Shown: positions 35,372-64,000 of the stretch, in pieces
How positions within the stretch are numbered: position 1 is the first letter of the stretch
How the letters are laid out: each line of letters starts with the position of its first letter
Source of the DNA: Lingula anatina
Taxonomy: Eukaryota > Animalia > Brachiopoda
Length of the DNA: 64,000 nucleotides
Assembly (NCBI GenBank): GCA_051362555.1
Contig: CM120640.1
Span: 26,026,225-26,090,224, forward strand
Reading direction: 5' to 3'
Notes under the pieces: generated by a model
The model's database searches: none
Told to the model about the DNA's origin: nothing
What the model saw: the letters and a program-made list of their open reading frames with translations, nothing else
Program-made: the position numbers and the translations under genes

Positions 35372-37169
35372 TCAGTCTAAGGATAAAGCAGTAAAATCTT
35401 GAGAGTCTACAGTCCTGGTTTTCTTTGCAACAGCACATTTTTCTCCAGAGGCCTCTTGTAGTTTTGAACTGCTATTTACTTGAAGGTCATACTTTTTAAT
35501 CACCTCTTTAAAGGGGCAACTATCAGTGCTACCATCACTTTCACAGAAATCTTTAGATGGAGATATATTGATATTTATAGTCATTCTGTTTACCTCAGCT
35601 TTCATTTCAGATGGCAGCAGCCTCTGCTCTAGTTCACCATAGCGCGTGTCTCCAATCTCAAGTTCCGGGACATACGGCTCCTTCTTCAGTTCAGCAGAGT
35701 AGTTTGGTAGCAGCTTGGAATAGGTGTACTTCTCCATAGGATAGAGTTGTTTTTTCTTGCGTTCACGTGTACTGTGGCGTGTTGAAACTTTATTTTTGGA
35801 CTGATCACCTTCAGCAGCCAGTTGATCAAGATGCTGGATCTTGAACTTTAAAGCACGGACAATGGAACTGTCCTCTTTTTCTTGATGTTTTCCCCCTGGA
35901 GTCTCAGTCTGGTTTTCAAAGTACCTTTTACGTTTGGTGTAGTTCTCCCATTTTTGTTCTTCCTCCGTTGTTGGATTAACACTGCGCATCTCCAATTTCT
36001 GGGTCACTGTGGCTTGGACTATCATGTCTGGATCATTGGGATCATGAAAATGTTGCTTGAACAGTCTCACAGTGAAAAACTCGCAACATGTGGTGCACTG
36101 AACACACTGGGAGTTCTTCATTTTATACAGGTGAAGGTAAAGGTCCCCATCCTGAGAGCGCCCTCTCTGGTCATCTCTATGAACCGCATCCCTATGGACA
36201 ACCTCTAAGGGTTTCTGCTTCTCCATGGCCACTGTACATGGCTTCACCTCCCCATCACAAGCTATGACACGCTGGACCTCACAGCTTTCACCCACAGAGG
36301 TGTCATCCAGAGTTTCAATTTCCATTCGATCCTCAGGGTAGAAGGAGTAACAGTGATCAAGTTTTTGCTTTTGGGAGTCATGCTGAGGAGAGTGGCTAAA
36401 CTTTTTGTTTCTTGGAGACTGTCGTTTAGCATTGTGTAAATTCTTCATCTTTTCCTTTTCAATTCGGTGCCTTTCCTTCACCTCAACTGCTTTTAATTTC
36501 ATGGCTTTTAGTTTCAATTTCTGGAGGTCTCTTGTTGCTTTTACAAGCTTCATTTTCTCTAATTCAGCCTTTCTGGGGCGTCCTCTTGGAGGGGTGATGG
36601 GCACTATACCATCCGGCAACATGGCTGGGGTTTTCATTTTTTTATCATTTTCATCTTGGTTATTTAGTGAAGAGCCTGAACTTTTTAATGCAATTCTCCC
36701 CCTGCCAAACCCTTTTTTAGATCTCTTCTTTCCTCTGAGTTTTACCTTAAGTGCTGTGTCTTGAGGTGTTGGTGGTAGAATAAACTTTTGAAATTCTGAA
36801 CAAAATCCAGTGGTGTCTCCTTTAGAATCCAAAGATGCTTTACAATCTGTTGTTTGATCTCCCACAGGTGTATTTGTGCCTGTCAAACTACTAGGATCAA
36901 TACCACTTTGGTCCATAGCAGGAGGCTCAAAACCACATTTTTCAGTTTCTTCATGATCACTGGAGTCGGATGCACAACTGCCTTGTACCAGCTGGTCATA
37001 TCTAACACGTTTTCCACGTCTTGGACGTTCTAACCTGTTAGAGGGACAAGGCTCCTCTCTTTTTCTCTGCTTTTTGGGCTTGGTAATGTCAGTGGGTACT
37101 TTCTGGTTAGAGTCAGTAACTGCATCATTTTCCTCTGCTCCAGGATCACTATTCTTATCACCAGGTATA
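35372..37169 (-). CDS. Last coding exon of the Ski-like gene (AT-hook PRGRPRK, coiled coil, SAND-like Cys/His domain)
   Basis: 644-aa ORF; acceptor tttcag| before 37169; stop TGA ending at 35372. Confidence 0.85.
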
Positions 37170-40100: not shown

Positions 40101-43100
40101 TTGAAGGACAGCATGGTCTGGACTGTGATCCTCTTTCTCCAATGGGCTAGCCTTTAAACAAACAAACCAAGAAATACTTAACTTTTATAACAGAGCAAAT
40201 CCAAACAAACAGTAGAACTGATATATCAGTATTACATAATTTAAACTTTTTTATTACTATGGGCAAAATAGTTTCTAACCATATTACTAATTTACATAAT
40301 GCATGCATTGCAAAAATATCTTGTACCTCACAGCCATCCTTCATCTTTTATTTTCAAAAGAACAAATATTTAAGTTACACATGAAGTCAAATCTTTTGCC
40401 ACAAAACCTGAACATGATATAGTTTCAAAAGCATCACTTAAAGAAATACCAAAAGGCATCATCTCACATTTTTTTAAAAAAATAATATTGAACAGATATT
40501 TTCTATTTTCTTTCTGTGCTATATATAACCCTCATTTAAACATTTATTGCATGCACAGAATGCATCATAAATTACTTAGTCATTTGGTGAACATTTACAA
40601 ACTGAAGGTGGATAAATAGGTCAGTTTCCAATGAGAAATATGAAAAGGTGAAAATTTACAGTTATTTTTGCTATATTTTGACATGTCAACTTTATTTAAG
40701 TTTTTTTAAGAGAAGTAGAAGTGGTTTATAAGAAAGTTTGTCAATTATTAACAACACCTTGATAAAGTTCACCTTTTGAATCACAAAAAGGATACTTATA
40801 TGAACATCCTACCATCCACAGTTTAACTTGTCACAAGTTTGATCAGGAAAGAAAATTTAGGCGTCAAAAGCTATATAAATATTTGCAAGCTTGCTTAAAG
40901 GTTTAAGTGCCATTCCACACTTCTCTAGGTCTATACTTAACACAAAAGTTTATCAGCTAGGAAATGCTTACAGCCAGTCTTATCTGAATGGGTTACATGT
41001 CATGTGGAAATTCCACTATGTGTGCCAATCACCAAACAACTCTCTTCCCTGTGCAAACTTTCTTTTTTTTTATACAAGAAACTGAAAGCAATTTCCTTCG
41101 CACTAGGAGGTAATAAATTATACAGAAGTTGAATCTATATGCTAAGCTACACACTGATGAGCATTTATAAGAACATGCACCATTGTATAGAATTCAAACT
41201 ACAGGTAATTCATCAGCTATTGTTATGAGCAGGATGTAAAACAAATGCCTGCCTGAGATAATTTTGACAGGTCAATTTTACTGCTTTAAGACAAACAGGG
41301 TGTGCAAAACCTTGACAGATTTAACAACAGCCTTACATGTAAATGTTCTAAGATTTTACTGCTTGTAATCAATATGCAGTGTAGATACTGAGGAAACCTG
41401 TGTACAACATGACTCATTTTAGCTGTGCTCACTACAGCATATAAAATTTTGCCTACTACAAAAGAGGAGGGTAGAAATTCCAGAGATTTTTGAAAAAATG
41501 TAAAATTTGCAGAGATTTTTGAAAAAACGTAAAATTTGCAATTATCAGAAATATCCTACAGACACACTACTTTATGGTTGTGTTAACTAGCTTTATTAGG
41601 TAAAGTTCATCTTCAGCAATAAAAGATAGAGAAAGAAAAGAGAAAAAGAGAGAGATTACATACCACTTCAGCAATGTCTTCCCCATCTAAACTTATGGCC
41701 AAGTCTTCCGTGGAGACCTCTGAGTGGACATCACTCTCTACTTCAGAGGCTTTAGACTTCCTTCCTTTCCTCCTCTCCCTGGGTTCTTTCTTTTCTTTCT
41801 TGGGTTTCTCTGGCAGGACACTATTGATAGCCACTTCATAGTAAGCATGCCAGCAATAGTCATGATCTAGCAGGGCATGGGAATGAAGCAATGCTTCCAC
41901 AGGCATTTTAATATTCCTTTTGTCTTCACTTTTTGCTTTCCTTGGGACAGGGTAGCTCATGAAGGAAGCATATCTCTGTATTTTGCTGGGGGAGACCACC
42001 CCAGCTCCTGTAGCTGTGGACAATGGTAGAGCTTGACTAGTGTTACTGGACATGTGTTGGGAATATGCCTGCATTGAGGCAGCTGTTCCTGCTATACCAG
42101 CTTTGGTTAGGATTCCCTGAGGTGTAGTAGTAGTGGTGGTTGGGCCCAGCACACCACCAGCTGGGAGGATATGTGCTGTAGATGGAGTAGTTTTGGAGGC
42201 CTTGTGCAAAGCTGCACTGAACTGAGCCTGGGCATTGCTCAGTGCACCCAACCCTCCACTGAGAATGATCCCCCTCATAGGCTGGTGAGCTGAGGCTACA
42301 GGAGGGGTGGCCTGAGCCTGGGAAGTGAGAATGGGGGAAGAGCCCCGTGCCTGTATCCTAGTAATGGACGAGTTCACAGGTGTCACTGGTCTGGCAATAA
42401 CCCCACTGGCATAACCTACAGATGTCACTGCTAAAGACTTAGAAATGCTACTTTCACCAAGGTCTGATTTTTCAACCCCAACTTCGGGTTTACTTTCATT
42501 TCCCAAGTCTGTCCTGGCAGAAGTGCTTGTTTGTACAGCTTCTCCTTTGTGAGTTTTATTATCATGCGTTATACTGGCTGCACTATGAGAGGAGCCGACT
42601 TCATCACCACATGCAGCTGAGGGCAATTTGTCACTGGTAATTAAATGTGAGGATCTACTTGATTTTATATCACTATCCTCCTTTTCTTTATCAGTTCTGT
42701 CACAAGAGACAGGATGTTCAACATCCTCGCCACCACTACCACACTGGTTAGTTCTCACATTAATTAGCTGACTTTCATCTGGCACAATACTGGGCAAATT
42801 AAAAGAAGCATCATCTTTTAGCAGATTACTTTTTTTACTGATGGATGAATCCAATGACTTTAAACCATCTTCGTGTGCATTATCCAGTGTTACTGCAGTA
42901 GATGGGCAAGATGAGCTTTTCATATTGTTCAGCTTAGTATGCATGCTATTGATCTGGCCCAAGGCAGAACTTACTGCTTTCTCCCCATCTGGCTGAGATT
43001 CTGTAGCTGAGGGGTTGGATGTTGAAGGTAACACCACCTTCTGGCCACAAGTGGTCGTCAGTCCATTATCACCACCAGCATCTGTCACTCTATTACCAAG

Positions 43101-44369
43101 TAACGACTGCCCTTGGCATAATTTATCAGGAAACACTGTAATTACTTTAGTACCTGCCTGAGCTGTTACTTTTCCTATATTTAGAGCTGCAGTTGAAATA
43201 GAAGTCTTACTAGACATTTGGATTGGACTAACAATCGGCCTTTGTTGGACTTTTGCACCCGCCTGTGTGACAGCCACTACTTTCTGCCCTTTGACTCCTA
43301 CATTTCCCTGAGCCAAGGCCGACTTCACTGGGAGGTAAACCACCTTGTTACCGTTTGTGAAGGCCAAAGTTGTCTTTTGCTGCTGTGAAGCAGGCTTAGC
43401 TACTATGGTGGCCAGCTGATGTTTATGTTGTACACCAGGCAGTGGAGTTTTCACCATTTTCTGTCCATTAGAACTGGTAGTCACATACAGAGTTAGTGTA
43501 CTGGGCTTAGCTGCCACTGTTACAGGAGAAGTCATTTCCACACTCGTTTCTGTCATCTCATGACTTTCAATTTTTGTTTCCTCTGGTGACCCAGGTTCCA
43601 CACCAGAGTCGCTGTCTGGTGCCACTGTTGTATCACATCCCATTTCAGAGTCCGACTTGTCACTGCTGGGCCCCTTAGCTGATAATGAGTCCACAGAGTC
43701 CGATCCTTTGGCTATAACCACACTTTTCTGCTCTGATTGGTCTACTTCAGTCACACTACCATCACTATCAACTTCCCCTTTGTTAGTCCTTTCAGAAGTA
43801 GTAGTCTGACAATGGAATGCTCCACGTGTCAATGTATTGGGGCCTATCCCAGCTTGTGTTGCAGATACACATGAGTCATCTTCCAAATTAGACTGCTTGT
43901 CTGTATCCTGGTGATTAGTAGTCACATGCTCCACCTGTTTATTATTACTGTTGATATCACACACACTGATATCTAGGGCATTCCTCAAGGTTGGAAAATT
44001 CTGTGATACACTGGTTCCACTAGCACTGATGACCATTTTCTTTGTTTTAACCACAGTGTGTTTATGTTCAGGAGACTTCACATCTCCATTTGTTTTCTGC
44101 CATGTATTGTTATCCCATTTGCTTTCCTCGTCTGATGCACTGACCTCTCCGTTTGTGGTTTTGTTGAGGTTTTTAGTGACATCTACTGCAGCAGTCTTGA
44201 TAGTCATGTCCTGTTGTGAATTGTTCACAATAGATGGCCTTGACTTTGCTTTCAATGTAGTGGAGTCTTTAGGGTCAGGACTGTTACTACTATCCTTGGC
44301 ATCACAAAGCGTATGGCTCTTTAGGGCAGCAGCTGCAGCTAAGACATCCAGTGGATTGAACTCGTCCAT
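35372..44369 (-). CDS. Uncharacterised large nuclear protein (about 2140 aa) with divergent Ski/Sno/Dach-homology domain, Ski-type SAND-like domain, AT-hook and two HCF-1-binding-type motifs
   Basis: Minus-strand exons 44369-41664, 40151-38677, 38417-38147, 37766-37594, 37169-35372 (TGA), phases consistent, total 6423 nt. DHD-like: YWNTFPALMINNEPHVRLVDIHKQALP..LLKKRC..IKNCSDMQRDFL..VIVSKTTAEELIGFY. SAND-like: LYKMKNSQCVQCTTCCEFFTVRLFKQHFH. The gene structure is well supported; the domain calls are by recalled pattern only. Confidence 0.8.
38677..40151 (-). CDS. Second coding exon of the Ski-like gene (basic NLS-like stretch, polyQ, start of DHD-like domain)
   Basis: 505-aa ORF; acceptor aag| before 40151; donor cag|gtatgc at 38677. 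Confidence 0.85.
41481..41540. repeat. 29-bp direct tandem duplication (intronic)
   Basis: cagagatttttgaaaaaaYgtaaaatttg twice in succession. Confidence 0.85.
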
Positions 44370-44378
44370 TTCCTTTGT
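41664..44378 (-). CDS. First coding exon of the Ski-like gene (902 codons, low complexity, Ser/Thr/Ala-rich)
   Basis: 918-aa ORF; acceptor ttccag| 9 nt upstream of ATG 44369; donor gtg|gtatgt at 41664. Confidence 0.85.
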
Positions 44379-47300
44379 CTGGAAAGCAAAACAATACTAA
44401 CTCATTGATAGGTCAAATCTCAAAACCTGTTATTTTGCAAAAAATTGCTGCTCAAAATATACACCTTTCCATCTTTTCAAGAATTTGGCTATAAATACTA
44501 TATAGAGTGTAAACAAGAATACAAAATCCCTATTTATGTGCATTGAAAGTTGCACAATGGACTTATACAAAGGGCATTCCACTAGCATATAAACTGCTAA
44601 CAACAAAGGCTTTACCAATATGCCTATATACGCATGATATATCCCACAGGTTAAAGCTATGCTATTGGCAAAGTGCCTGAATGAATTGCATACACACATT
44701 TTTATGTATTTACATAAGAATGAAATACGATCAGCTGCAGTTAGCAGTATAAAGTATCTAGGCTATTTCAAAACAAATATTATCTTGTAAATGAACCCCA
44801 TGTTATTTTTTTTCTCTCACGAATGATCCACTTGGGTATAAAAATCTGGCTACATAATCTTTCAGTCTGAGATCCAATTCAATTCCGTAATGACTCTAAA
44901 CCAGGCACTCCTACAAATTTAACTGCACATAGTGTGAACATGATGCAATGTTATCGTAGGCATGTATAATCAGATAAACACACCTGTTTCAATTTTGGTT
45001 TGGAGAGATTAACCAACAACCTTTCATTTGTATTTGTACTTATGTATTTCGAAATATCCATCACACAATAATAAACCTCCAGTCAATAATACTCAGCTGC
45101 TTAGATGCGACTTCCTGCACTATACATTTCCCACCTCATATAAATAGATGCCAGATGCTTTGACATGCACAGTACATGTCAGCTACAGACCTTTGCTTTT
45201 AAGTGATTAAATCTATGCACAAAGGTGGAGTGATAGAATGACAGATAGCATTGTAGGTTGACTTGCAAACCAGAAAATGTTTTCTTTTATAGACAGACTT
45301 ATCTTACCTGAAAAAAAAAACTTAATACTGCATGGAAACAAGTATTATTAATCAAAATCCCCAAGATAAAATAATTGCCATGTACTGAATTGTGCTTTAA
45401 CATTCAGTTTAAGAGGAAACTTGACCTTCCCAATGTACATGATATAAATCTTTTAAATGTGACATTATTTGCCTGCCCATAGTATCACTGCCTGGTTGGC
45501 TGGTTTATATACATGTTACTAAAATACTGGTCTATGGGAGACAGTAAGGTTAGATCTGCAGTTGACCGATGAATTTTCATAAGTAAAGTGAACTGAAAGA
45601 AGAGAGAGCAAAAGTTTCAGTCTAAACCTATTTTGCTCTTAAAAACAAACCTCAGTGAAAAATAAACAAGTGTAAATATAAACTTGGAAACATTATGCAG
45701 CCTTCACTTCATAAGCTGTTATTCTGGCAGGATGTGGTCTACACTTCCCAACCTTTGAGATTGTTCCAATGTCAGTGCAAAACGGCTCTATAACCAAGTC
45801 CACACTCATTATACATACCACACAATGCAAACATCCTGGTATGACTCAATTAAGGTTATCTGTAGTTATACAACCTTATAAGGAAGATCAATATTACTTG
45901 AATATAAAAAATATAAAACAGAACAACATTCAACAAGTTGAGAAAAGTTATAACAAAGAAAGCAGCCATTAAGCACACAGTGTGCACTTAAGTACCACAG
46001 AAAGCAAAACTTCATGGTATAACCTTCGTACATTTTAGATAAGCTTTGTCCAAAATGTGGGTCACCCGTTTCATTTGTATATAGGTGCCATAGTAATATC
46101 ATGCATGTTTTCTTATAAACAAATAACAAACCAATTCATACACATAAAGGATACAAAGCTTGCAAACCACTCCTTTATGTATTGATTGTATGAATGTTAC
46201 ACCCAGTCTTCTATACAACTTGCAATATAGAGTCAACCTGCCTCTATATGTTACAAGAAATGATAATCAATATATATGGCTCTGCAACCATTATGTCACT
46301 GTCAATGTGTCATGCCACATACTTGTGTCTATAAATGCTGCACAGCATCCAACTTATGGCAGACAACAGTATTTTTGACAGCAGTACACAAACCAAACAT
46401 TTTCAAATAATTAATGAGCATGCCAATAAATAGATAAATGTTATAAGGAACTTTAACAGTTTCCCCTTGGAGATTAATGGAAATAACAAAAAGTCTGCAT
46501 TTAATTCTTTTTAACTGACTATAAACTGATTACCATTACCTGGTTTATGGATGAAGTACAAGAAAACATCTATTTCACAGTAATCTCTCTTTTAAAACGA
46601 TGCATCCCCTGCAATATACATTAACAAGTTAATAGCATTAACTGCTGCATTTACAATCAATGCAGAGTTTGTATTATACTAACATTTACAGCATGCTTTG
46701 TGAATCATTTTCAAGATCCAATTTTCCTTGCTGATAATATTCAAATAGTGAACACAGCATATTACCTTATAGCATGCACCAAATAACTTCCCATCTTACT
46801 CAGATTTTGCAAATTCAGTGAAGACTGCTTCAGCTTGCCAATCAATATCTACTGTTAGTTCAGCCCTGAGCCTCGTCAACTACAGAAGACTTTTAACGAA
46901 AGAGGCAACCATTATTATATACAATGTGGACTAAATATATTTGCACTTAATGCAGGATGTAAATTGCAAATGGTTTAATAACTGTGTTTCCATGACAAAC
47001 ACTGCTATCAGCCAGCCTACTGTTACATATAGATGTGGGCCAATATAATGACTGCCATCACATATTAGTATGTATATATGGTGGTCTGGGATAAAATTGT
47101 TCATCTTTTGTTCAGTAAATGAAATTTATAACTAAGAATTTCATATCTGACAAAGTACACATAATTATGTAAATAAAATTATCATCAATATTTTAGAAAA
47201 ATTTAAAAACATCTAAAATCACAAAAGTATCTATCTTGACTTTGGCATTTACCTTTTAAACATCTTATTAGAATCCTGTTAAAGTTAAATTATAACGACC

Positions 47301-49793: not shown

Positions 49794-50280
49794 CTTATAT
49801 TTCTATTTCTTATTGTTACGATGCATTATCAGTCACAAACGTTGCAATATTATGAGAACATTGCAGACGGATTATATTTTTACCCGCTGGAATGTCCGCC
49901 ATCTTTCAACGTCATGTGACCCGCGAATGCCTCGTTGTGAAACAAATTAATGGGTTTCTTTGTTGGGATATTTTTAAAGTTTTGTGAAATATTTAGAAAA
50001 AATATTAAATGTCATGGCTGTCCTGGTGACAATACTCATTGCTTTCAATATTTCTGTCAATTAATTGCCTTCATTTGCATTCAGAAAGTATATCAAAATA
50101 GAAAAAGTCTTTCGACCCAATCAATCGCAGTCATGTGATTGAACAAAATGGCGGCGGATTCCGAGTGATGTACGCACAGGAACTCTTATATTACCAATGT
50201 TGGATGGCGTTTTTCAAATAACAAACGTTTATAACATTTCACAAAAAGTCATGTAAATATCGTATTTTGAATTAAGCATG
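49794..50280. promoter_or_regulatory. Bidirectional promoter shared by the Ski-like gene (-) and the MUN-DEP gene (+)
   Basis: Outward-facing YY1-type motifs (AAGATGGCGG on minus at 49905-49896; AAAATGGCGG on plus at 50145-50154), each next to GTCATGTGA (49911-49919, 50130-50138). CCAAT at 50117-50121. Minus-strand donor aag|gtaggt at 49794 for a non-coding first exon. Locally CpG-richer. Confidence 0.7.
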
Positions 50281-53200
50281 TCAAGTCGGCGAAAGAAGGT
50301 GGTATCAATTAGCGAGAGTGCAAATCTGATACCAATAACCGAAGTGTTAGGGAAGTTTTATGAGGCAGAGGAACATAAATGGAGGAGCCTGGACATTGCA
50401 AATGCTGAGAATGGACAAGACAGCAAAGAAAACAACCCGAACATTGAAGTTGGGAATGTTTTGTTAAGGTATTAGCTATGTTTATTAATTTTTTGTTGTT
50501 GTTGTTGTTTGTTTATATGTTATCGAACTTTTTTGTCGGAAAACGAAAATGAAAACAACACAATCAGAAATTCCAAAAAGCTTATCACTGTCAGTGACTC
50601 TTGAGAACAACTGCTATGCGTCTGATATGAGAATTCTTTCTATCTTATGCTGTCTGGTATTTACAGCGAGTGGAAATGTCTTTTGGGAATTTTCATTCAA
50701 AGTGATTTAAATAAGGTAGAGCTACTGAGGACCGGTATTTTTTAAACATTGCTCCATTAGTAGTATTATTTATATATCTTAGAAGTATTGATGCATACAA
50801 AATATATTATTTATTTTGATGTTATTGGACTAGAAAGGAATGAAAGCAGTATATTTATGTTTGATAAGGTGACTGAAAAATAAGCAGGCATCTGTGACTG
50901 GTTTCTCATGCCTAGATCTATCCATCTAGATCAGTCTAACGCCCTGGGAGTTAGGGAGGGAGATAGGTCAGTCCTAATATCTGTGGGAATGGTTTCTCTA
51001 AAGTGTTAGGCAAAGTTTTAAACCTTATACTGCCTTAAATTTCAAACTTCCAAAGAGAGTAGTAGCATTTGCTATATTTAAAATTTATTTTGACAATTAC
51101 TTTTGGCACAATCAAATTAAAGAATGTACATAGTTCATTTTTTTCTGTTAATACAATTATAGCCTAGAAAGAATAATAACAGTAATATACAATGACAATA
51201 CAGAATTACAGCCTGATTTAAATGCAAAGCTTAACTAAGTTCAAAAGTGATTTTTGAACACACAAATTTATTATGGTGTTTTGTGAGAGAAAAGGAGCTA
51301 GACAGCTGCAATATTTAGCCAAGATGAGTGAAAGGCAAAGGAGTGGTTTGATTTATGGCTTCTGGCTTGAATGTTAAATGATACGAAAAAAATATTCACA
51401 CACTTTTCAGACTGAAAAAAAAAGTAGATGAAAATTTTAGGTGTATGTTTGCTTTTTTATGAAGGAACATTTTTATTAGGACAAAAATCTTAAAAACAGT
51501 GTAGGAATTTTAATCAGGTTTTAAAAAGCCAATGTGGTCAATGAATACAGTTATCAAAAGTAATGTTGTTATAGAAGTATTTCATTTCATGTAATGCTTT
51601 TATTTCTTTGCGCTAATGCACTATATGTTATGATATCTGTATTTGACCATTAATAGTTAAAGCTATCTTAGTTTCAAGTCTTTTGTCTTCTCCAATTACA
51701 GGCACTGCAGAGCACTGAAAAACATCCAGAGATACTTTATCAATCTTGAGTAAGTAATCTGTTTTGACACAATAATAAACAGGTAGGTCAATCATGTGTC
51801 TTTGATTATGTGCACGTGCATCAACTCATGGATGGACTCCTCTTATCACATGCAGGGCACTTATTAAAACCCTGGCGTGAGTTATTTATCATATATGAGT
51901 TAATAGATAACCATGATCTCAAGCTTGTCACTGGAGGCAAATTTATTGTTCACAAGCCAGAAGTTGTTTTGGTTAACTTGTATTTGAAGAATTATGAACA
52001 TACAATAAAATATAATTTAGAAATATATAGTGTCATACATAGTTATCTTTCTTGTTTGTATTGATGAAGATTCCTTACTGCTTTTTGAAGTATGTTTACT
52101 TGTTTACAGAGCAAGGAAATGTTGCCTACATTTGACACCAGCTCAACCCACTACATTTAGCAATATCAGACTAGTAAGCAGCTCTAAATTGAAAACTGTG
52201 TAACAGTGTTAACGGTTTGTTTAATAAAGCTTCAAAGAAATTGTGTGGCACAATGTTTTAATCATCGTCTGCATATATATTTTTGAAAAAAACACTTAAA
52301 ATTTGCTTGTTAAAAAATTCAGACTGCAGATGTTTTGCCAGTGTTTATCTTTGAATTAAGAGTTCAGTGTTACATGCATCCATTCTGATATTTGCAGGTG
52401 AGAAGTGATACTGCTGATGTATCAGTGTCAGAGAGTCCACCTCCAGTTGGTAAATAATTACATTATGTTTTATTATTTAATGTAGCTTTTAAAACTTAAT
52501 ACATACATACTTAATATATAAAGTTTTAATTAATATGATTTTTAATGTTTTGTCTGTCTAAACTAACAATATGTTTTTGTGTTATTATTTTAGAGTCCAT
52601 AGCGGGAAGGGTGAAAATAATTACATCTAATTCTAAACTGAATGAAAAGGTTAGTTTTTATGAATGTTTGGTATCCTTTGGTTTATATGCTTTTTATTTT
52701 TGTTTACCCAGTTCTGAGCAGGAAGTATGTGCTTCTCTATCATCCTGTTTGCATAAGATTAAAATCTAAATATCATATCTGTAATCTGACTGACAGTAAC
52801 TGCTTCCTCAGACAAAATCATGACCTTTATGTGCTAATCTGTAAAATTGTTAATCTATTTGTGGCACATTTCAGTGCCAGATATGAAGGTTATCATTAAT
52901 CAAAACTGGTGATAAAGCTATATTAAAGGAATATTACATTAATATTTATCATTTGTCATATGTGTTATACCTTGTGGATTATTCTTGAGTTAATTCTTAT
53001 ATTATCTTACTGAAAATACTAATTAGACTGCATAATTTTATCAAAATATAATAACTAGATAAAAAATAAGGAACACTGGGGGATATGTTTTGAATGCACT
53101 TTGATGTTGTTTTCAGAAATGAAATGATCATTTTTATATATAACTTGTTCACAGGCTGAATAGATTTAAATTCTGACTTGTAACTTTCTACAGAAAATGC

Positions 53201-55923
53201 ACTCTAAAAAAATGACAAGGCACATTGTAACATTTTTTTTTAAATTTATATTTCAGGATTTCACTGTGTACAAACATGCTATTCTGTGTGCCCATTTTCC
53301 TCAGTTGTGTGCACCCGACCCACCCTCCTCGCCCACTCCAACCCCTAACCCTGCCACCAGTTCAGATACAACACCAGCCAAGGGTTATAGCTATGAGAAC
53401 TCCACCGAGGGCTCTATACATTACCGATCCCTCAGAGCCATCAGTCCTACAGGGTTCTCCTTTGAACAGCAAGATGAAGCTGCCTCATTGGTCCAGCCTG
53501 ACGGAATGTGTGAATTACTGAGACAAGCATTTGGACTGGCTAAAGACAGAGCAATGCAATATAATAAGAAAGTATATGACAGTTATGGAAGGAAACCACC
53601 TGCAAAGGTAGATATATTGGGTATTTGTTAAGTTATCATTGTTTTTATGCAAGTCTTCAGCAGTTGCAGTATGAGGTGCAGGTATTTCTGCAAGAGATTC
53701 CTTGTAAGAAATGCCCTGATCTGTACACATTGATAACTTGTTGATTATCCATGAAATCTAATAAAGATTTAATTACCTCCTGATATTGCCTCTTAAAAAT
53801 AAACATTTGGACTCAATAACATTCCTATAGTGATCAGTTATAATTGTGGTCACCAGTCTCAGTCCCAGTTATAAAAGCTGGTTAGTCACTGATTTATCTT
53901 TGTCTCGCACTTGACATCTACCAGCTACAGGAATATGTATTCTCAGACTTCTGAAATATAAGATAGCCATCTGTTAGACTCCCACCAAATGCACTTTCTC
54001 TGCTTTAGATTTCAAACAGGGTGTTGTAATTGGGGTCAAGCTTTGGTATGAATTAAGATGCAACTTGTTAAAAATGTTCTTATTTGACTTATATTAATGG
54101 TTTAGAAAGTCTTCCAATTTTGATTTTAGAATATATAATTATCATATGGATAAAGCCTGTGGCATTATAGCAGAAGGGTATTAATTAGATAAATATGAAA
54201 TGCCTAATTCCAGCATCACATATTTGAGCTAACATTTTTGTATATAATGCCACATGGCTTTTTAAAACATATTTTTTTAAAACATATTTAAAAACATATC
54301 TTTTTCTGTTGCATAACATAAAGTTGTATTAAGTGAAAGAGGGTGGGTAGTTTTTAAGAGATTAAAATTCAAATATTGTTATTATCTGCTTGATATATCA
54401 TATTTACCAGAATAACCTCTCTCAATTTACATGTATATCTCTTTTCAGATCTTAGTTGAAGAGTTGGTTGGCCAGCTGTCAGTGCTAGAAAATAACAAAC
54501 ATCCCTTTTACAATCCTCACAACTTTTTGGTGAGTTCCAATTTACTCATTCATACTTAGAAAACTTCACAGTTTATTTGCTTTTAGAAAAAGTGAAAAGT
54601 AGAGAATATTTTCTATAAAATATTTCGCTACTTATTTACAATATCACAGAGCACTTTTTTCACATTTTTATGAATTGAAAATTTTAAGGGCATGCTAATT
54701 GAATATTTTAAAATATGCTCATGTTATTTTCCCTAATTTTTTAACTTTTTACATATCCCCAGACAAGGAATGCCTATGACAAATGGCAGCAGCAGCAAAG
54801 ACTTGTCATCACTGAATTGATCAATAAGTTCTGGCACTTCTCGCTTCCCCCTCTCAGCAGTGGTCAAACGGTAGATCTCTCACGAGTCCATGAAGAATAT
54901 GAGTATCTCATGAGGAGACTAATCAGGTAAATATTCATGAATTCCTAAAGGTTATCATATGATGCGGCTAGCCATTTAATTCTTAATTTGTCCATGAAAA
55001 TAACATTATTCTGATAATAGCTGACCATGACAAAGTTAATGAGCAAATGAATTATGAGAAGACAAACCAGTAAAGGGTAGGAAAACTCAGGTCTGGACAC
55101 TCCTTCAGATGAAGACTATCCAGATATTCATAATTTTGATATTAAAAAATGCAATTCAGTTAGATCAGATGTTAATATCTAAAAAGTGCACAATCTAATC
55201 CATCATGTCTTATCATAGTCTTGTTGTTATTTAATAGAGAATTATTTTTCTCTTTAGTTTTGAGACCTGTATGAAGCAGCAGAATGCTGGAACTCCGCAG
55301 TATGCACGCTGTGTTCCCTACTCTGCCACCTCTGCCAGAATACTCACAGAGTTTGGGCTCAGATATGGTGTGGTGTGTATACTGTCTTTGTTGTCATGAT
55401 ATTTCTTGTAAGGGTTGGGGGGAGGGGAGCATACACTTGGTCACCCTTTACTTCACTTAAAGAAAAAGATAATATTATAATATATGTTTTGGATTATATG
55501 TTTTGGATTACTTACATGAAATGATAGTTATTTGGCTTAAACAATACATTTGTTAAAGTATCAGCAAATACTAATACACTGAGATTTTGAGATTATGCAT
55601 TTCTGATAACAGCCTTTTACACTTGAACAATCCCCATTACATATTTCTAGGGGGAGTTATACAGAAGGATAGTGTACTTGCAGTATTTAGCAGAGAACTT
55701 GGAAAGTGAGCCTTGGTTTGTGGAGCACACTACCTGTGTTCTCTGCAATATCCGTGACATGCTGCCACAAAATAGAGGAAGGGTCATCATGGTGAAGCAA
55801 GAGGTGAATACTTTTTGACATTATCGATTTTTATTAGGTTTGGTGTTGACTTTTTGACAGTCTCAGTTGATTCAATTTATTTAAATTTTATCTGTATTGA
55901 GTACACTTTCATATATTTTATTT

Positions 55924-55990
<67 letters not shown>

Positions 55991-58900
55991 TTTGCTTCTG
56001 TGTCTCATGTTGCCTGTTACTCTCCTGTTTTAAGATCTTCTCTGTTATATGTTAAAGAAGTAACATTTGATGAGGTTTTAAATAACATAATAAAGTAATG
56101 GTAAATGTTCTTACAGTTTGAGAAGCTTCAAACAGCAATTATCCAGCTACATGGTCAGTGTGGCAACTTCCTGACCAAAATGAAAAGATTGTTTCCTGAA
56201 AATAAACCACAGAGTGGAGTAGGTCAGTTATAAGTTCATTTTGTAATTTGTTATCAACTTGAAAACCAACTTTGCAGTGTGTTCAAAAATAATATTTGAT
56301 TACATTTTATTGTATTTAGGTTTGTCTCTTCTCTACTTACTGAAAATAATTTTTTATTGTTTTGTTTTCTGAAATAACAGATTTTGTACTTATAGCATTT
56401 AATTCACACTACACAAATAATTCTTTGAAATTGTACCTCTGTAATTTCAAACCAGGCACCATTATTGAGCTGTTGGATAACATCCTGAAGATGAAGGTCT
56501 ATCTGTCTGGCAAGAAGCAGTCCTCTGTTGGTGACTGGCTGCAGCAGTATGCTGAGGTACAGTGAGATTTTATACACTTCTGTAGCATTTATTATTGCAA
56601 TGCAGTAGTGAAATATAAATGTATATCTGACAAAAAACTTTGATTTTCTGTTATTCTTTATTTCAAAATAATAGCTTTTTATACTATTTGTCTTGTTCTT
56701 TGTACTGTGCATGACTGCTTATCTTTATATCTTGGTCATAAGAGATATTTATATTATTTATTTGTGATATACATGCTGTATATTTTTATTGTAAGAAGCA
56801 CTTCCCAGTTTTTTTATACATATTTTTCAACTTGCTCATTCAGGAAAGCTTTCTGGTTGCATATGAGAGACACAAGACCATAGCTTCCACTGACCTCAAG
56901 ATGAACACTGTGCTGGAACCACTATCTGCAAAACTGGTAAGTGAGTTTACCTAAGACAGAATTTTTTCTTTGCATTAGCAGCAAAGAACAGTGATCGTGA
57001 TCATTGGTGGCAGGAACTTAAATGGGGATTTTTCCATGACATTAACACTTTTTAAAAATATTTGTACTGGTCTCACCAAGTTAAGTTTCTTAAAAAAGAG
57101 GGACTGTAGAATCCCCCTTCCAAGTTCTGATTATGGGTACAAAGGGTATTTCTCTATCACCTAGTTCATTTATTGTTTCATAATCAGTTATACTTGGTTG
57201 TGTTGTCTCCAATATTTGGAGATAATAAGAATAGTCACTAAGAAATTCAATTTTAAGTACAATTTGCTTTTATATAATTCACTTTTAAGAAGTTGCAATC
57301 TTTATAAACTTAGGTAAGATAAATACATTATTACCCTTCAGTATTTCTTTTTTACTTTATCTGTTTTGTTTTTAGCTTAATGTCATTATGTTGAACATCA
57401 GGGATGAATTGATTGATTACCGAACAAATTATCAAGCTACATTTGAGGAGTGAGTATTGAATGATGGATCCCAATATATGGGTTTATTCAACTTGCTCAT
57501 GTTATCTTCAAAACCTTTTATTAGAAAAAAGTAGTATTAGTTTTACCTATGAAACTAATGAAAATTATGTTTTGATTCTTAGACTAGTATTTGTGTTCAT
57601 GAACTAAATGCAAAGAAATATGTAAGTCTGCATTTGTTCTTTTTCTAGTTATTTCAACATCAGCCAAATTGCAGCAGTTTCCTTTTATGAAAAATTGATG
57701 GAAGATGTTGAGGATCTATGTGATACCACACTGCAGCAAACGGTGAGAATTTTTTTGTCTTGGATTTTAACCCTTTGGCAATTTAGAATGTAAATAGATA
57801 AATCACTTTTATTTTATTTTCCTTTTATTTCTATATTTGAATTCTTAGTTTGGTTGTGCCATTTTTAATATGCTCAAACATTTTTGTTTTATTCTCCAGA
57901 CTGGAGACGAGGTAGACCTGCTGATGGTCAGCTTGGCGTATAGACTGTCACAACTTGACCAGGACTGGGCCTGCTTCATCAGACCAAAGTTAGTTGGTCT
58001 ATTTAGTTGTATTTGTTAAGAAGACACACACACTTAATCAGTAATTGTTTAAGTTTTGCCTGTGTACTTTGTGCAACTTTGATAAGATACAAGATTAATA
58101 AAAAGTTTATGTGCTGAATCTGTTTGGAACATTTAACATTCCTTTTTTTATTTATCTATTATTATTTTTTTAAGGTTTCAGAGGTGGAGACATCCTTTTC
58201 TGCTTCAAGTTCTGCACTGGCTTTATGTCCTGAAGGAACACATGCAAACACTGGTGCTGGAATCTGTGGCCACAGAACAGGTAACTGAAGTTTCTTAATA
58301 ACAAGTTATATTTATTGATATTAAAGTGAAAAGCTTTAGTTTGATCTTATACCTTTTCTTATCTATTAGTATTGAAAAGATCTTTTTCCTGAAATGAGAT
58401 GAGTTGAAAAGAAAATAGCCATAAAATATTTCTCAGTACATTTTTTCTACATGAAATGTGCACTGGTATTATTTTAGTTCCGAATGCTCAAGCTAACATC
58501 GGAGCTGTACCAGGCAGCATCCCTGGCACCATTAGGCAGTGATAACAGCAGAGTGCACTCTCCTTCCATGTTCTCCCTGACTCCATCTGTCCACTCAGCC
58601 TTCAGCACACCACACCATCTCTCTGGCAGCTCATCAGCACACAGTACTCCTGGTATAGAGGTAAGTTACCACTCAGCATTCAGCACACCACACCATCTCT
58701 CTGGCAGCTCATCAGCACACAGTACTCCTGGTATAGAGGTAAGTTACCACTCAGCATTTAGCACACCACACCATCTCTCTGGCAGCTCATCAGCACACAG
58801 TACTCCTGGTATAGAGGTAAGTTACCACTCGGCATTTAGCACACCACACCATCTCTCTGGCAGTTCATCAGCACACAGTACTCCTGGTATAGAGGTAAGT

Positions 58901-61900
58901 TACCACTCGGCATTTAGCACAGTGCGCCTCTCTGGCAGCTCATCAGCACAGATTGAAGATTTTCTGTCTTATGTTAATTTATTGTAATGTGTAATAGAAG
59001 CAGTATGTTAAGAAAACTTATCTACAAATTCTAATTTTTCTTTCAGGAGGATGCGCAGTTGAACGGACAGGCCTCAAGGATTACCGTGGAAGCTTTGGTA
59101 CATGGAGACAGGAAGGGGTCATCTCTCCAGCAACCACAGACTCACTATGAAATCTATCAGAGTAAAGTGAGACAACAAAATGACTTGGACACCAGATCAG
59201 TGGATGTGTGGCAGACCGAGGCATTATCGCAAGGACAGGGTGGCTTTGTTACACCTCCAGCCATGCAAGGGGTATTGACTTTCCAGAAGACCATACACCA
59301 TAGCAAATCCCTTCCAACTCTTTTCACTTCATCAGATTATGGTTCAGATACATCCGATTATTCGCCACCTTTTGGAATGAAGGATGACAGTAATTGGAGA
59401 TGGTTTGGCTCTCCTGAACTGGAGACTCCAAAGGCGAACAAGCCAAAAAATGGGGTAACATTTGAGAAAGATCCACATTCTTCAGAAAGGACTCCAGTCA
59501 ATGCAGCAGGCACTGAGGGCATCAACAGGAGCAAAGACAGCAACAGAAATTTGACAGGCAAGATGGATGATTCGGAACAAGAAAAAGGGTTTGGTTTTCC
59601 ACCTCTCACACATATTGCCCATTTAAAACCTATAGATAATCAAACTCAGATGACAGCTCATGAAGATGTTCTTTCTTCAGAGAGTTTTGAGCAGAGAGAG
59701 CTTGCAGATGCCAGGCCAGAAATGATGCCATACTTTGATCCATACACCGGAAGCTATGTTAGTAGGAGTAGCTTCACTGCAAAGCCCTTAGGGGAAGGCT
59801 TGCAATTTATCAGTCTTAGGGGGAAAAGTCAGTCACAAAAACCCAGGATTTTAGCAAGTAAAGTCAACAGTGCTTCAACTGCTCAGAGACCAACATCCAG
59901 CAGAAAAAGTAGTAGATCACACATTAAAAGCCCCACTACACAAAAGACCCAGCATGGACTATCAGAAATAACATTAGCCGACCCTGCCTACCACCTCCCC
60001 ATCTCTGGATCTGTATTTGATGTGGTCACCATGTCCCAGCGCTATGTGACTTTTGCAAAGACTATGTGCGACACCATCTGCCCTTTGCCAGTGTTTGAGG
60101 AGCACACCCCACCACCCACACCGCTTGAAGAAAGCATGGGTTCTTCCACAGCCAGTAGCAACCCTCTGGATCCAGAGTTTAGTCTGAGAGCAGCAGCCAA
60201 GGAAGCCATGTTAGGAAGAAAACAAGTGTACAATAAATTGTTACAGGTATGTCACTTCCATGGATACATGAATTTGTGTGTGTGTGGGTGCATGTGCATG
60301 CGTGTGAACTGATTGCATGTGCAGTTAATAAGAGGTTTTAATTGTTATTTATTTGTAAATAAATTGCATTCTTGTGTGATGATGTATAAAATTGGTCTTG
60401 GTTTTGCTTGATTTGTGAGATTAATACAATAAGAAAAATAATGGAAAATCAGATGATTAAAAACTTTTAATGTCAGTTGTTTTACCCCATTTATGTTTTC
60501 TTTTCAGTGTGTCTCAAATACAGTTTGTTTGTACGCAGATAACATGATGTCCATGGATCTTTGTGCAGTGTTTGAGAAAGAGGGAATAGATTTAGTTGGT
60601 GTTGAGGTAAATTTGAAATTAGATTTTTATTTGGACAGCCTTAGTTGTATAAATGGTATTATTGATATTGATATCATGAATGTTTGTAAAATATGTAAAG
60701 GATTAATGGAAGGCAGTTTTTATCAGTAACACACAGTCAAACAACAATGCAACCCATTAAGTTGAAAGTAGATTGAATCTATATATACAAAAATACTGTC
60801 CATTTTAACTTGAAGCCCCTTGTAAATGAAATTCCATTTTTCAGTTGATTAAGCATTTGAAGAAGCAGAGGAAGCAAGGTCTTATATGGGGCTGTAGACA
60901 TCAGCTGGAGGGGATTAAGGATTGCTTCTTTTACATGAGGAAAAATCCCAACATACTGTCAGGATCACACGAACCAATTACAGAAAGTGTAAGTTTGTTG
61001 GCAAAACAAATTATTAGTGTCAGCTCAACTTCCATAATTGTTAGAGACACTTTTCTGGTTTGGAACATAGTGTAATTTCTAGGAAACCTAAATTCAAGTG
61101 GAGATGTCGACAATAACCAAACGTGAATTTCTCTGGATGAGTTTCAGGCCTGTGGCCAGAAATTTCAAAAGTGGACCTTTAACCATGAAACTTACATGTA
61201 CCTTAATTAAATTTTACCCAGAGGGGACCTTTTCCCTGCAAAAAGTTTTTTTTTTTTCGAACCCCCCCCCCCCCCTAACCCCCCTGGCTACGGGCCTGAG
61301 CTTTAATTCAGCTGCTGTATTAATTCTCCAGATGTGTGTCAGGATAAACAATGTGACAGCCTTGCTGGACCTGTTACCTGACCTGTGGGCCAGGATGTCA
61401 AGGGCTGTGGAAGCTGAGAGGTTGTTTGAAGAAAGAAGCAGGAGTGGAACTGGTAAAATAAGAGACACATCAGCTTTAATGTATTTCTTAAATCATATAT
61501 TTTTGAAAATTTGACCCATTACATAATATTTTTTTCAGTTCCGTAATATCATTTTTCTGTTGTCACTTGTTAATCTTTTTACATCCTATAGAAAGTTACA
61601 AAATAAAAAAAACAGTTGCACCTCGTGTTGAAATGGTAATAGACTTTATTGGTAGTTTTTCAATGTTTTATTGAAAGAATTTGAGAGAGAAGAATGATGT
61701 GAAAATTCCCAAAAGAATAAAATGGTGACCTACATCCATAAAGTTTTAATTTTAACCCATCCCTTTCATCATATATTGAAAAGCTTAAAATGAAGAATTA
61801 AAAGAATTGTGATAATCATTTAGGGGAGTCCTCTGCTCATCAGTCCAGCTTTGGTGACAGCGAAGACAGGTATTTTAGTTTCACCAGACAGCTGTCTAGT

Positions 61901-64000
61901 GACAGTGTGCTTTCCCATGGCTCTGAGGTGACAGACGAGTTTATCCCAAAAATAGGGCTCAAGGTGAAAGAAAAGACTAAACACCACCTTCAAATCATAT
62001 GGAAAGGGCTCGTCAACATACTGGCTTATAGGGTGAGTGTTAGAAATAAATTTTAATATTCTTGGTGAGAAAGGCTCTATGTCTTCCAATTCTAATTTTG
62101 AAATCCTGGCCTTTTAATAGAATTAAAGATATAACTAGAACTGTCAAGTAAAACCCCTTTTCTTAATATGTTATTTTAACCTTCCAGATGAACCTGTTCT
62201 TCAAGGATGCCCTTACCTTGCTCCTGTCTATACAGCGCCCTACATTGTCCATTGAAAAACAACTGAAGCCACTCATTGACTTCTTCACTGACCATTTGAC
62301 CTCCCTGGCACAGTGGCTTTACAGGGACTCCTTCAGGAAGTTTCTTGAAGTTCTGTGGCTCTTTCTTGCCAAGGATTTTAATGCTGAGGTGGAGAGCCTA
62401 AAGTACACAAGCATGAACTCTGAGGCCATTGCAGAAGTCATGCTGCAGACCATAGCTGTAAGTCACTGTGGTGAATACGAGGTTGTGAGTTGTGATATAT
62501 ACAGAATCATTAATAGTATATTATGGATTTAGGACATTTTATACATTGTGTTTGTGCTGTGAGGATATCATGGGAAGCTGGAATTCATATCAAATTTGAT
62601 TTTGATATCAGTTTACAGCACCAACATAACTAAATTGTTCACTCAGCTTCATCTGTATTCTATAAGTAGCAAATACCCTTGGTAATTAGTTTGTAAAGTG
62701 TGTCGTCTATTCAGTATCTATGTGCCAATATCTATGTTCACAATTTTGGATTTTTTTTATAGTTCTTCATAAAATATTTGAATGAAGATGACAGAGGATT
62801 GGACCTAGACTTTCTGACCACGGAAGTGGTAAGTCGGCATTTGTTATTTTGTTCTTGAACAGATATACCAGCAATTGCAAAAAGGACATCTAAATATCTT
62901 CTTAACTATTTCAGTTTTTTTTTCAGGGCACCTGGGACACAGCTGTTGTGCTTAAATTTTTTTTTTTTTCATTTTTTGTTTATTTATTTTTAGGAAAATG
63001 TGATTTTCAAGCTTCAGTTGTACACCACACCAACTGTAAGACTAATGAGACTTTACCTACAGCTGCAGGCAGAGGTAAAGAAATTATGTGATATGCTAAC
63101 TGCAAATGTATACTTTTTTCCATTTTATGAAAATTACTAATAATAAAAGAACCTAATGCACTGAGGTTAAATTCAAATACATAGTATAGTCTGTGTTGTT
63201 ATTGCTTTATTAGTTGGTAATTCCAAATATTCACCAAAGAGTAGGAAGAGTTAAGCCATACACATTTTAATTTGTTCAGTTCACATTCCTGTATTAAGTA
63301 AAATTTATTTCAGAGAATGCAGGATACTTATTCACAAACCCCAGGGTCAGAAGTTCCCAACAAGCTTTTCATTGCTCATATGCAGCATGATTTACATGCT
63401 ATACGCAAGTGTTTCAGTGGACAGGAACTTGTGGACTGGATTGTCACACATCCACAAGCTCTTCACCCAAAGAAGAAACAAAGCCAAGGTGGGTATGTCA
63501 CTGAAGGCACATTATAAAGAGACAAAAGAAAAGATTTTGACAGATATTCATTGAAATGTTATTGGAAAATTTGACATGTTTTATTAGTCTCCAAGTTCCA
63601 AGTGCTATTCTCATGCACAGGTGTCTTAAGTTGATTGAACAGGATTTGGTGCAAAAACAGCATTTAGCAAATTTTCCTGGACACTTTACTTTAAAGAATA
63701 ATCTTGAAAATTTTTGGATATTGTTTTTGAATGAATAATTTTTTTTCTTTGCTGGAAGTATAGAGAGATCAAAACAGGATCGAAATCTGTTTCATTGAGT
63801 GTTTCATGCCAATAATTTGTTCTTAATGCCTTAAATATAAATCGATATTTATATATATTTTTACATGAGATATTTTTCATCAGTCAGTGTGCTTTCATTC
63901 AGATTCCTCTGATAGCAATTACTCGGTGAGCTCTTCAACAGAAGAAAGTGAGTCAGAGGACATGGTGGCCAAAGCAGGGCACCTGGGACAGAAAATGCTG
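50278..64000 (+). CDS. Munc13-family MUN-domain (MHD1/MHD2) protein with a C-terminal DEP-like domain; 3' partial (at least 1528 aa)
   Basis: Exons 50278-50468, 51702-51749, 52110-52173, 52398-52449, 52594-52649, 53257-53607, 54449-54529, 54763-54926, 55258-55372, 55651-55803, 56117-56222, 56456-56556, 56844-56936, 57376-57449, 57649-57742, 57900-57988, 58175-58280, 58478-58660, 59047-60246, 60508-60606, 60845-60988, 61332-61452, 61824-62032, 62188-62457, 62763-62828, 62994-63074, 63314-63488, 63903-end; all phases consistent. MUN-like motifs ILTEFGLRYGV, SGSVFDVVT, MCVRINNV, LKPLIDFFTDHL..FRKFLEVLW, LQLYTTPTVRLMRLY. DEP-like RKCFSGQELVDWI ... AGHLGQKML. Confidence 0.82.
54152..54261. repeat. 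Inverted repeat (about 18-bp arms), MITE-like relic
   Basis: aaagcctgtggcattata ... tataatgccacatggcttt (one-base gap). Confidence 0.5.
55916..55993. repeat. (TTTA)n microsatellite
   Basis: Long run of tatt/ttta units in an intron. Confidence 0.95.
58591..58950 (+). repeat. 78-bp tandem repeat (4 full copies plus 1 degenerate partial) spanning an exon/intron boundary
   Basis: Units at 58591, 58669, 58747, 58825 and partial 58903. Each reads HSAFSTPHHLSGSSSAHSTPGIEVSY (26 aa) and contains GAG|GTAAGT. Confidence 0.97.
59047..60246 (+). CDS. Large 1200-nt exon of the MUN-DEP gene (mostly a disordered insertion, returning to MHD1-like sequence at SGSVFDV)
   Basis: 417-aa ORF; acceptor tttcag| (59046) and donor cag|gtatgt (60246). 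Confidence 0.85.
61145..61298. mobile_element. Short MITE-like element with 15-bp terminal inverted repeats
   Basis: caggcctgtggccag ... ctggctacgggcctg (13/15 inverted match) with internal poly-T and poly-C tracts. No clear target-site duplication. Confidence 0.6.

What the first reader, a model, noticed from the sequence alone, without database searches (positions are those of the whole stretch)
58591..58950. Tandem repeat that multiplies a splice donor: four identical in-frame 5' splice sites 78 nt apart
Seen: the 78-bp unit covers the last 70 nt of exon 58478-58660 plus the first 8 nt of the intron. A consensus GAG|GTAAGT donor therefore occurs at 58660, 58738, 58816 and 58894. The unit is 26 codons long and has no stop, so every donor splices in frame to the acceptor at 59046/59047. 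Differences between the four full copies are synonymous (gcc/gca, ttc/ttt, tca/tcg, agc/agt). Inference: donor choice could set the number (1-4) of Ser/Thr/His-rich modules, each with two TP sites and SxxxS spacing, in a disordered loop of the MUN domain. That would combine a VNTR with alternative splicing. It could equally be a recent neutral expansion with one dominant donor.
Basis: partly seen in the sequence, partly recalled or inferred. Interest (0 to 1): 0.8.

Follow-up and report, generated by a model that had tools for sequence, protein, structure and literature searches.

The report
Repeated splice donors, first one used
In a marine invertebrate gene, the end of one exon and its splice signal are repeated four times in frame, but every RNA read examined carries a single copy, so the extra signals are likely silent, as in known lancelet and human repeats of this kind.

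Summary
The array is real: four 78-nt copies (58591-58902) plus a damaged 48-nt fifth, with identical donors after 58660, 58738, 58816 and 58894, all in frame with the acceptor at 59046/59047. The four differences between full copies are synonymous. The proposed 1-4-module ladder is not seen. In four RNA runs, 0 of 33 reads reaching a donor continue into the next copy. Three more runs add about 10 spliced reads and no read-through. A database protein from another haplotype has one module. This is a new member of a known kind: exon-intron-boundary minisatellites (lancelet 'mirages'; human F7, LMNB2, PDGF), and this scan has found such arrays in other genomes. Caveat: no DNA run or intronic read shows that the sequenced animals carry the array, and most reads come from other haplotypes. 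Strong duplicated donors over 45 nt apart favour the last site in human extracts, and all-synonymous divergence is unlikely by chance (0.3-3%). So an allele-specific multi-module protein stays possible (about 15%). The module holds a conserved SAF motif in a predicted disordered loop of a MUN-like fold.

The parts
58478..58660 (+). Authentic exon (183 nt, phase 0 at both ends; residues 647-707 of P0001); its last 70 nt are the exonic part of copy 1
   Evidence: RNA joints 58280->58478 and 58660->59047; 61 of 61 residues identical to P0001
58591..58668 (+). Copy 1: 70 exonic nt plus the first 8 intron nt; holds the donor in use (after 58660) and encodes the conserved SAF motif
58669..58746 (+). 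Copy 2 with intact pseudo-donor after 58738; its exon-like part matches the commonest exonic allele in the RNA (A at unit position 10)
58747..58824 (+). Copy 3 with intact pseudo-donor after 58816
58825..58902 (+). Copy 4 with intact pseudo-donor after 58894; no RNA depth in four runs
58903..58950 (+). Partial fifth copy (48 nt), no donor, with a 9-to-6-nt replacement
58661..59046 (+). Intron as spliced in the RNA (386 nt, GT..AG), containing copies 2-5
   Evidence: joint skipping 386 nt in 7+3+3+1 reads
59047..60246 (+). Downstream 1.2-kb exon encoding most of the predicted disordered loop
   Evidence: (loose ends)
50278..64000 (+). Host gene (runs off the window): about 1870-aa protein with a MUN-like helical rod and a DEP domain, conserved in marine invertebrates
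   Evidence: tblastn of P0001

Best explanation
A 78-nt piece spanning the end of an exon and its splice donor is repeated head to tail into the intron, all RNA reads examined carry one copy, and the three extra donors are likely silent pseudo-donors removed with the intron. The array probably grew by slippage or unequal crossing-over (inferred). The spliceosome would commit to the first strong donor it meets after the upstream acceptor, which gives the shortest exon (183 nt), as proposed for human F7 (inferred by analogy). The protein would keep one module, so the array would be nearly neutral. The synonymous-only differences would come from copies recruited from different exonic alleles in a very polymorphic species (inferred; shown only for unit position 10). 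Shown: structure, frame and single-module mRNA. Inferred: origin, mechanism of donor choice, neutrality, and that carriers of the array behave like the animals sequenced.
For: One search folded all copies onto one unit with 8-nt bins. Reads reaching the donor: 9, 16, 7 and 1 in X1, X3, X5 and X8. Each lays exactly one letter beyond it (the G shared with the next exon) and depth at 58669-58692 is zero, so 0 of 33 read through; the upper 95% bound is 9%, or about 16% if mates are halved. Loose ends in 32 of the 33 are exon 59047; the only listed joint from the array is 58660->59047 (14 reads, 4 of 4 runs). X2, X4 and X7 add about 10 spliced reads with no linker coverage. No copy-3/4-specific letters are listed in any run. 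P0001 has one module, and each of 27 of 27 family members has one SAF motif at this place. RNA SNPs in this exon are 7 of 7 synonymous, and the copy 1/copy 2 difference is a segregating exonic SNP. Precedent: F7, LMNB2 (100-bp unit) and PDGF (81-bp unit) use only the first donor (PMC1557585); lancelet mirages do not disturb splicing (PMC3087553; PMC3902484).
Against: Nothing shows that the RNA animals carry the array: there are no intronic reads and no DNA run was listed. Most reads come from other haplotypes. The window's allele at 59220 is in 3 of 23 reads, and at 58600 in 2 of 17, 1 of 19, 0 of 10 and 0 of 1 reads in X1-X4, though in all reads of X5, X7 and X8. All four differences between copies being synonymous has a chance of 0.3-0.6% under free drift, 3.3% for the three that lie outside copy 1. 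Three of those four states were not listed as exonic alleles in seven runs. A model in which older exon versions are frozen in the intron fits poorly (P about 0.004). In human extracts and cells, strong duplicated donors 45 nt or more apart are spliced almost wholly at the intron-proximal (last) site (PMC3413131). In F7 minigenes perfect-consensus pseudo-sites took 70-90% of splicing, and these donors are near-consensus. Depth is low (6-26% of each run was read) and tissues are unknown.
Confidence: 0.72

Rival explanations
1. The array is limited to some haplotypes and absent from most animals sequenced. In carriers a downstream donor (likely the last) is used, so the copies are translated and the allele makes a protein with up to four modules: a coding VNTR created by donor capture.
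For: All four differences between full copies are synonymous (P 0.003-0.03), while the partial fifth copy, which can never be exonic, carries the only complex change. Proximity bias for strong donors 45 nt or more apart (PMC3413131). Most RNA reads come from other haplotypes.
Against: 0 of about 43 donor-crossing reads in seven runs from three studies read through, including runs X5, X7 and X8, which share copy 1's allele with the assembly. Four synonymous changes need time, and an old array should be common enough to appear in seven runs. No multi-module relative was found. The finding was picked partly for being in frame and synonymous, which inflates that signal.
Confidence: 0.15
2. One reading: all donors are usable and give minor or tissue-specific isoforms with 2-4 modules, as with human 6-16 and CBS, where the next two pseudo-sites are used.
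For: Identical strong in-frame donors with no stop. Human 6-16 and CBS use two extra donors (as summarised in PMC1557585). The data only bound read-through at about 7-16%.
Against: No read-through in seven runs from three studies, and the database protein has one module. No homologue has the repeat, so a conserved regulatory role is unlikely.
Confidence: 0.09
3. The array is an assembly artefact that stacks allelic versions of the exon end.
For: The species is very heterozygous (27 SNP rows in about 570 exonic nt). Copy 2 equals a common exonic allele. No raw DNA read confirms the array.
Against: There are four different full copies plus a rearranged partial one, more than the two alleles of one animal, and they change stepwise along the array. 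Such arrays are documented in lancelets, one gene confirmed by re-sequencing.
Confidence: 0.04

Closest known systems
Lancelet 'mirage' minisatellites (Adh3, troponin C, globins BflGb6/BflGb9, PGBD5); PMC3087553 and PMC3902484, passages read; the original Adh3 paper was not seen
   Same: Tandem duplication of an exon-intron boundary with intact splice signals in a polymorphic marine invertebrate; regular splicing unaffected; boundary copy most diverged.
   Different: Here the host is probably a lophotrochozoan, the unit is a whole number of codons without a stop, and the copies differ only synonymously. Length polymorphism was not tested.
Human F7 intron 7 37-bp VNTR (PMC1557585; abstract, Introduction, section 9 and Discussion read)
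   Same: The first unit spans the exon-intron boundary, identical donors are reiterated, and only the most upstream one is used, even where some pseudo-sites are in frame.
   Different: The F7 unit is mostly intronic (4 exon + 33 intron nt) with a weak donor. Here it is mostly exonic (70 + 8) with a near-consensus donor, and every pseudo-donor is in frame.
Human LMNB2 (100-bp unit) and PDGF intron 4 (81-bp unit) minisatellites; seen only as summarised in PMC1557585
   Same: Similar unit length; only the authentic donor is used.
   Different: They have 10-18 copies against 4.6 here; frame relations are not given in what I read.
Human 6-16 intron 2 and CBS intron 13 minisatellites; seen only as summarised in PMC1557585
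   Different: No use of an extra donor was seen here.
Munc13 / MUN (CATCHR) family, for the host protein
   Same: A homologue's model matches Munc13-1 best (Foldseek E 1.9e-7; Z 15.6, rmsd 4.7, 472 aligned); the family profile hits Munc13-1 at E 1.1e-4.
   Different: No C1 or C2 domain in Pfam scans of 20 members; it has a DEP domain and a loop of about 400 aa inside the rod.

Membership tests
Exon-intron-boundary minisatellite ('mirage', F7 type) | Head-to-tail repeat whose unit spans an exon-intron boundary | tested here: met
   78-nt unit = 70 exon + 8 intron nt, 4.7 copies
Exon-intron-boundary minisatellite ('mirage', F7 type) | Intact splice signals reiterated in the intron | tested here: met
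   Four identical donors
Exon-intron-boundary minisatellite ('mirage', F7 type) | mRNA of the species is spliced at the authentic site | tested here: met
   0 of 33 reads read through; 14 joints at donor 1; P0001
Exon-intron-boundary minisatellite ('mirage', F7 type) | The same holds in animals proven to carry the array | tested here: inconclusive
   No intronic reads and no DNA run listed; most reads come from other haplotypes
Exon-intron-boundary minisatellite ('mirage', F7 type) | Copy number varies between haplotypes | not testable with these tools
   No genome held, no DNA run listed, no related locus found in metagenomes
Multi-donor ladder (6-16 / CBS type) | Downstream pseudo-donors used in mRNA | tested here: not met
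   0 of about 43 donor-crossing reads in seven runs; low depth, carriers unproven
Coding VNTR | Several units present in mRNA or protein | tested here: not met
MUN-like (CATCHR) fold, host protein | Helical rod that superposes on the Munc13 MUN domain, with the repeat in an inserted loop | tested here: met
   Tested on homologue P0023: low-confidence segment 633-1023 holds the motif (661 = P0001 686); the match spans the loop. P0001 itself was not folded and has no Pfam MUN hit; 2 of 20 members hit MUN weakly
Munc13 proper | C1 and C2 domains flanking MUN | tested here: not met
   No C1 or C2 family among Pfam hits at E up to 0.1 in 20 of 20 members

The most novel reading that the evidence does not exclude
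The array is an allele-specific coding VNTR made by splice-donor capture: animals that carry it splice at a downstream donor and multiply a motif conserved from cnidarians to lancelets (SAF plus STP) up to four times in the loop of a MUN-like protein, while animals without it make the one-module form seen in the RNA runs.
Probability: 0.15. Interest if true: 0.55.

Novelty: new member of a known kind. Interest (0 to 1): 0.22.

Why it matters
As it stands, it is one more tolerated exon-boundary repeat. Its value is as a natural test of donor choice: four identical near-consensus donors, 78 nt apart and all in frame (so decay of frameshifted transcripts cannot hide their use), in an animal with short introns. 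The scanning model (F7) predicts the first donor, the proximity rule the last. The RNA favours the first, if the animals carry the array. If carriers used later donors, it would be a direct route from a neutral intronic repeat to a protein repeat.

Tried and rejected
No whole genome is held, so the frequency of such arrays in this genome was not measured; no second exon-end duplication was found in 50000-64000. The run search listed no indexed RNA holder and no DNA run; seven of the nine listed raw-read runs were laid (X6 and X9 were not). In one search a few reads were placed on copies 2 and 3 (X1 2+2, X2 1, X7 1). I rejected them as evidence for later donors: for X1 the folded lay puts such reads on copy 1 with no linker, and those of X2 and X7 begin inside the unit. 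Intron retention was rejected: no depth on 58817-59011. Internal micro-exons between an AG and the donor of one copy would be 62, 55, 31, 23, 16 or 2 nt, none in frame, and no such joint is listed. Searches for multi-module relatives with the read-through ORF gave one hit at E 0.93 and, besides P0001, 13 hits of 23-39% identity that I took as low-complexity matches and did not examine. The metagenome scan gave four loci at 43% over 42 residues, taken as chance and not examined. A 'frozen record' model of polarised growth fits poorly. P0001 alone has no sequence match among solved structures. A recalled lead on human VNTRs with repeated donors in UPF3A/NOC4L found no paper in this library; PMC10078293 passages held nothing on this architecture. 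No paper held at least 3 of 4 terms for an MHD2/MUN + DEP invertebrate protein. The maximum-likelihood tree did not finish; FastTree was used. Exon borders outside 58175-60246 are approximate (tblastn). No supplements were read.
Full report
Observation. Tandem Repeats Finder gives 58591-58950, period 78, 4.7 copies, 95% matches. The 9-nt donor motif occurs four times in the 64-kb window, all in the array, after 58660, 58738, 58816 and 58894. The unit is the last 70 nt of exon 58478-58660 plus the first 8 intron nt. It reads HSAFSTPHHLSGSSSAHSTPGIEVSY without a stop, and all four possible exons (183, 261, 339, 417 nt) end in phase 0, matching the acceptor at 59046/59047. The four full copies differ at unit positions 7, 10, 13 and 40, all synonymous third positions, changing stepwise along the array. 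The fifth copy is a 48-nt fragment without a donor and with a 9-to-6-nt replacement.

Host gene. The downstream exon found one protein, P0001 (1870 aa), 98% identical over 400 residues. It differs from the window at 8 of 400 residues there and at none in the two exons upstream, so it comes from another haplotype or assembly of the species. It maps across 50278-64000 and joins exon 58478-58660 straight to 59047, with one module. Its 26 relatives, 24 of them named, are from hemichordates, lancelets, nemerteans, molluscs, echinoderms and a sea anemone, at 34-49% identity. A FastTree tree of 22 of the 27 places P0001 with nemerteans and molluscs (support 99; 91 for the nemertean grouping), so the host is probably a lophotrochozoan. 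Pfam finds DEP in 19 of 20 members and weak MUN hits in 2 of 20. The family profile hits Munc13-1 at E 1.1e-4, and the Atlas search of residues 250-710 returns MUN clusters at 0.85-0.89, a lead only. A model of homologue P0023 (mean pLDDT 61) shows a helical rod interrupted by a low-confidence segment at 633-1023. Its best matches are Munc13-1 (Foldseek E 1.9e-7; Z 15.6, rmsd 4.7, 472 aligned, range spanning the loop). The repeat module maps to P0023 660-676, inside that segment. The module is not arbitrary: its SAF motif occurs once at this place in 27 of 27 family members, and the region keeps 33% mean identity against 12% just downstream. The duplicated unit holds the SAF core but not the conserved residues before it. 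The motif's function is unknown.

RNA test. Nine raw-read RNA runs with the same species label were listed and seven were laid. On 58154-59323, four runs gave one listed joint from the array, 58660->59047, in 7, 3, 3 and 1 reads, with no depth on copy 4 or the rest of the intron. A few reads were placed on copies 2 and 3, which is ambiguous because the units are nearly identical. The second lay therefore used a stretch with only copy 1, the 8-nt linker and 24 nt of copy 2, in 8-nt bins, so that any read crossing any donor into a further copy must cover 58661-58692. Reads reaching the donor were 9, 16, 7 and 1. The linker bin held 9, 16, 7 and 1 letters, one per read (the G shared with the next exon), and the bins beyond were empty. 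Loose ends of 32 of these 33 reads are exon 59047; the last fell below the listing threshold. X2, X4 and X7 add about 10 spliced reads, none covering a linker. The upper 95% bound on read-through is 9% for 33 reads, 7% for 43, and 13-16% if mates are counted as one molecule. No letter specific to copies 3 or 4 is listed in any run.

Limit of the test. No read comes from the intron and no DNA run was listed, so it is not shown that these animals carry the array. The species is highly polymorphic (27 SNP rows in about 570 exonic nt). The window's allele at 59220 is in 3 of 23 reads. At 58600 the window's C is rare in X1-X4 (2 of 17, 1 of 19, 0 of 10, 0 of 1) and is the only allele in X5, X7 and X8. 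Most reads thus come from haplotypes other than the assembled one.

The synonymous pattern. Under free drift, four synonymous changes out of four have a chance of 0.3-0.6%, and the three outside copy 1 have 3.3%. This is the best argument that the copies were translated at some time. There is a simpler source. This exon's RNA SNPs are 7 of 7 synonymous, against 9 of 18 in the next exon, and the copy 1/copy 2 difference is itself a segregating exonic SNP. Copies recruited from different alleles by unequal crossing-over would differ only synonymously without being translated (inference). That is shown for one of four positions; the other three were not listed as exonic alleles. A model in which older exon versions are frozen further into the intron fits poorly (P about 0.004). 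The finding was also selected for these features.

Mechanism. Most likely (0.72): slippage or unequal exchange copied the exon end with its donor, the spliceosome takes the first donor, and the copies leave with the intron. Structure and single-module mRNA are shown; origin, selection mechanism and neutrality are inferred. Rival 1 (0.15): the array is haplotype-limited and carriers use a later donor. Strong duplicated donors 45 nt or more apart are spliced almost wholly at the intron-proximal site in human extracts and cells (PMC3413131, passages), and perfect-consensus pseudo-sites took 70-90% of splicing in F7 minigenes (PMC1557585, section 9). Rival 2 (0.09): minor or tissue-specific ladder below detection. 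Rival 3 (0.04): assembly artefact.

Known kinds. Minisatellites whose first unit spans an exon-intron boundary are published. F7, LMNB2 (100 bp) and PDGF (81 bp) use only the first donor; 6-16 and CBS use two more (PMC1557585; abstract, Introduction, section 9 and Discussion read; the four other genes seen only as summarised there). In lancelets they are called mirages and do not disturb splicing (PMC3087553 and PMC3902484, passages). I found the F7 paper before opening the scan's notes; the mirage lead came from note e1-9823008. The scan's notes list similar arrays in other genomes, mostly with first-site use and one with last-site use; these are unchecked and not counted as support. This array is a new member of that kind. 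Its particular features are a fully in-frame, mostly exonic unit, a near-consensus donor and a conserved motif inside the unit.

Verdict. Observation confirmed; ladder not seen; interest 0.22. The most novel reading not excluded is an allele-specific multi-module protein by donor capture (probability 0.15, interest 0.55), which genotyping plus RT-PCR of carriers would settle.

Noticed in passing
window 58592-58606 (P0001 residues 685-689): A short SAF[S/T/N/G] motif, usually followed by an S/T-P site, is kept once in 27 of 27 family members from sea anemone to lancelet, although it lies in a predicted disordered loop; probably a docking or phosphorylation motif, function unknown.
   Followed up: partly
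window 50278-64000: The host gene belongs to a MUN-like + DEP protein family; the 24 named hits are all marine or freshwater invertebrates, none a vertebrate or insect, and no paper was found in one search.
   Followed up: partly
window 59044-59049: Tandem acceptor (two AGs 3 nt apart); the reads listed and P0001 use the first.
   Followed up: partly
window 58478-58987: The frame stays open through the whole array and the partial fifth copy (169 codons to the stop); no RNA depth supports intron retention.
   Followed up: yes
window 58175-59323: Very high polymorphism: 27 SNP rows in about 570 exonic nt over seven runs; 9 of 9 synonymous in the two upstream exons, 9 of 18 in the loop exon.
   Followed up: yes
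window 5115-8021 (+), 10423-12483 (+), 38625-40184 (-), 41613-44396 (-): Long open frames of 968, 686, 519 and 927 codons with no Pfam hit at E 0.001.
   Followed up: no
window 35372-37390 (-): A 672-codon open frame with a weak c-SKI Smad4-binding domain hit (E 6.6e-6, 26.6 bits, residues 414-454).
   Followed up: no
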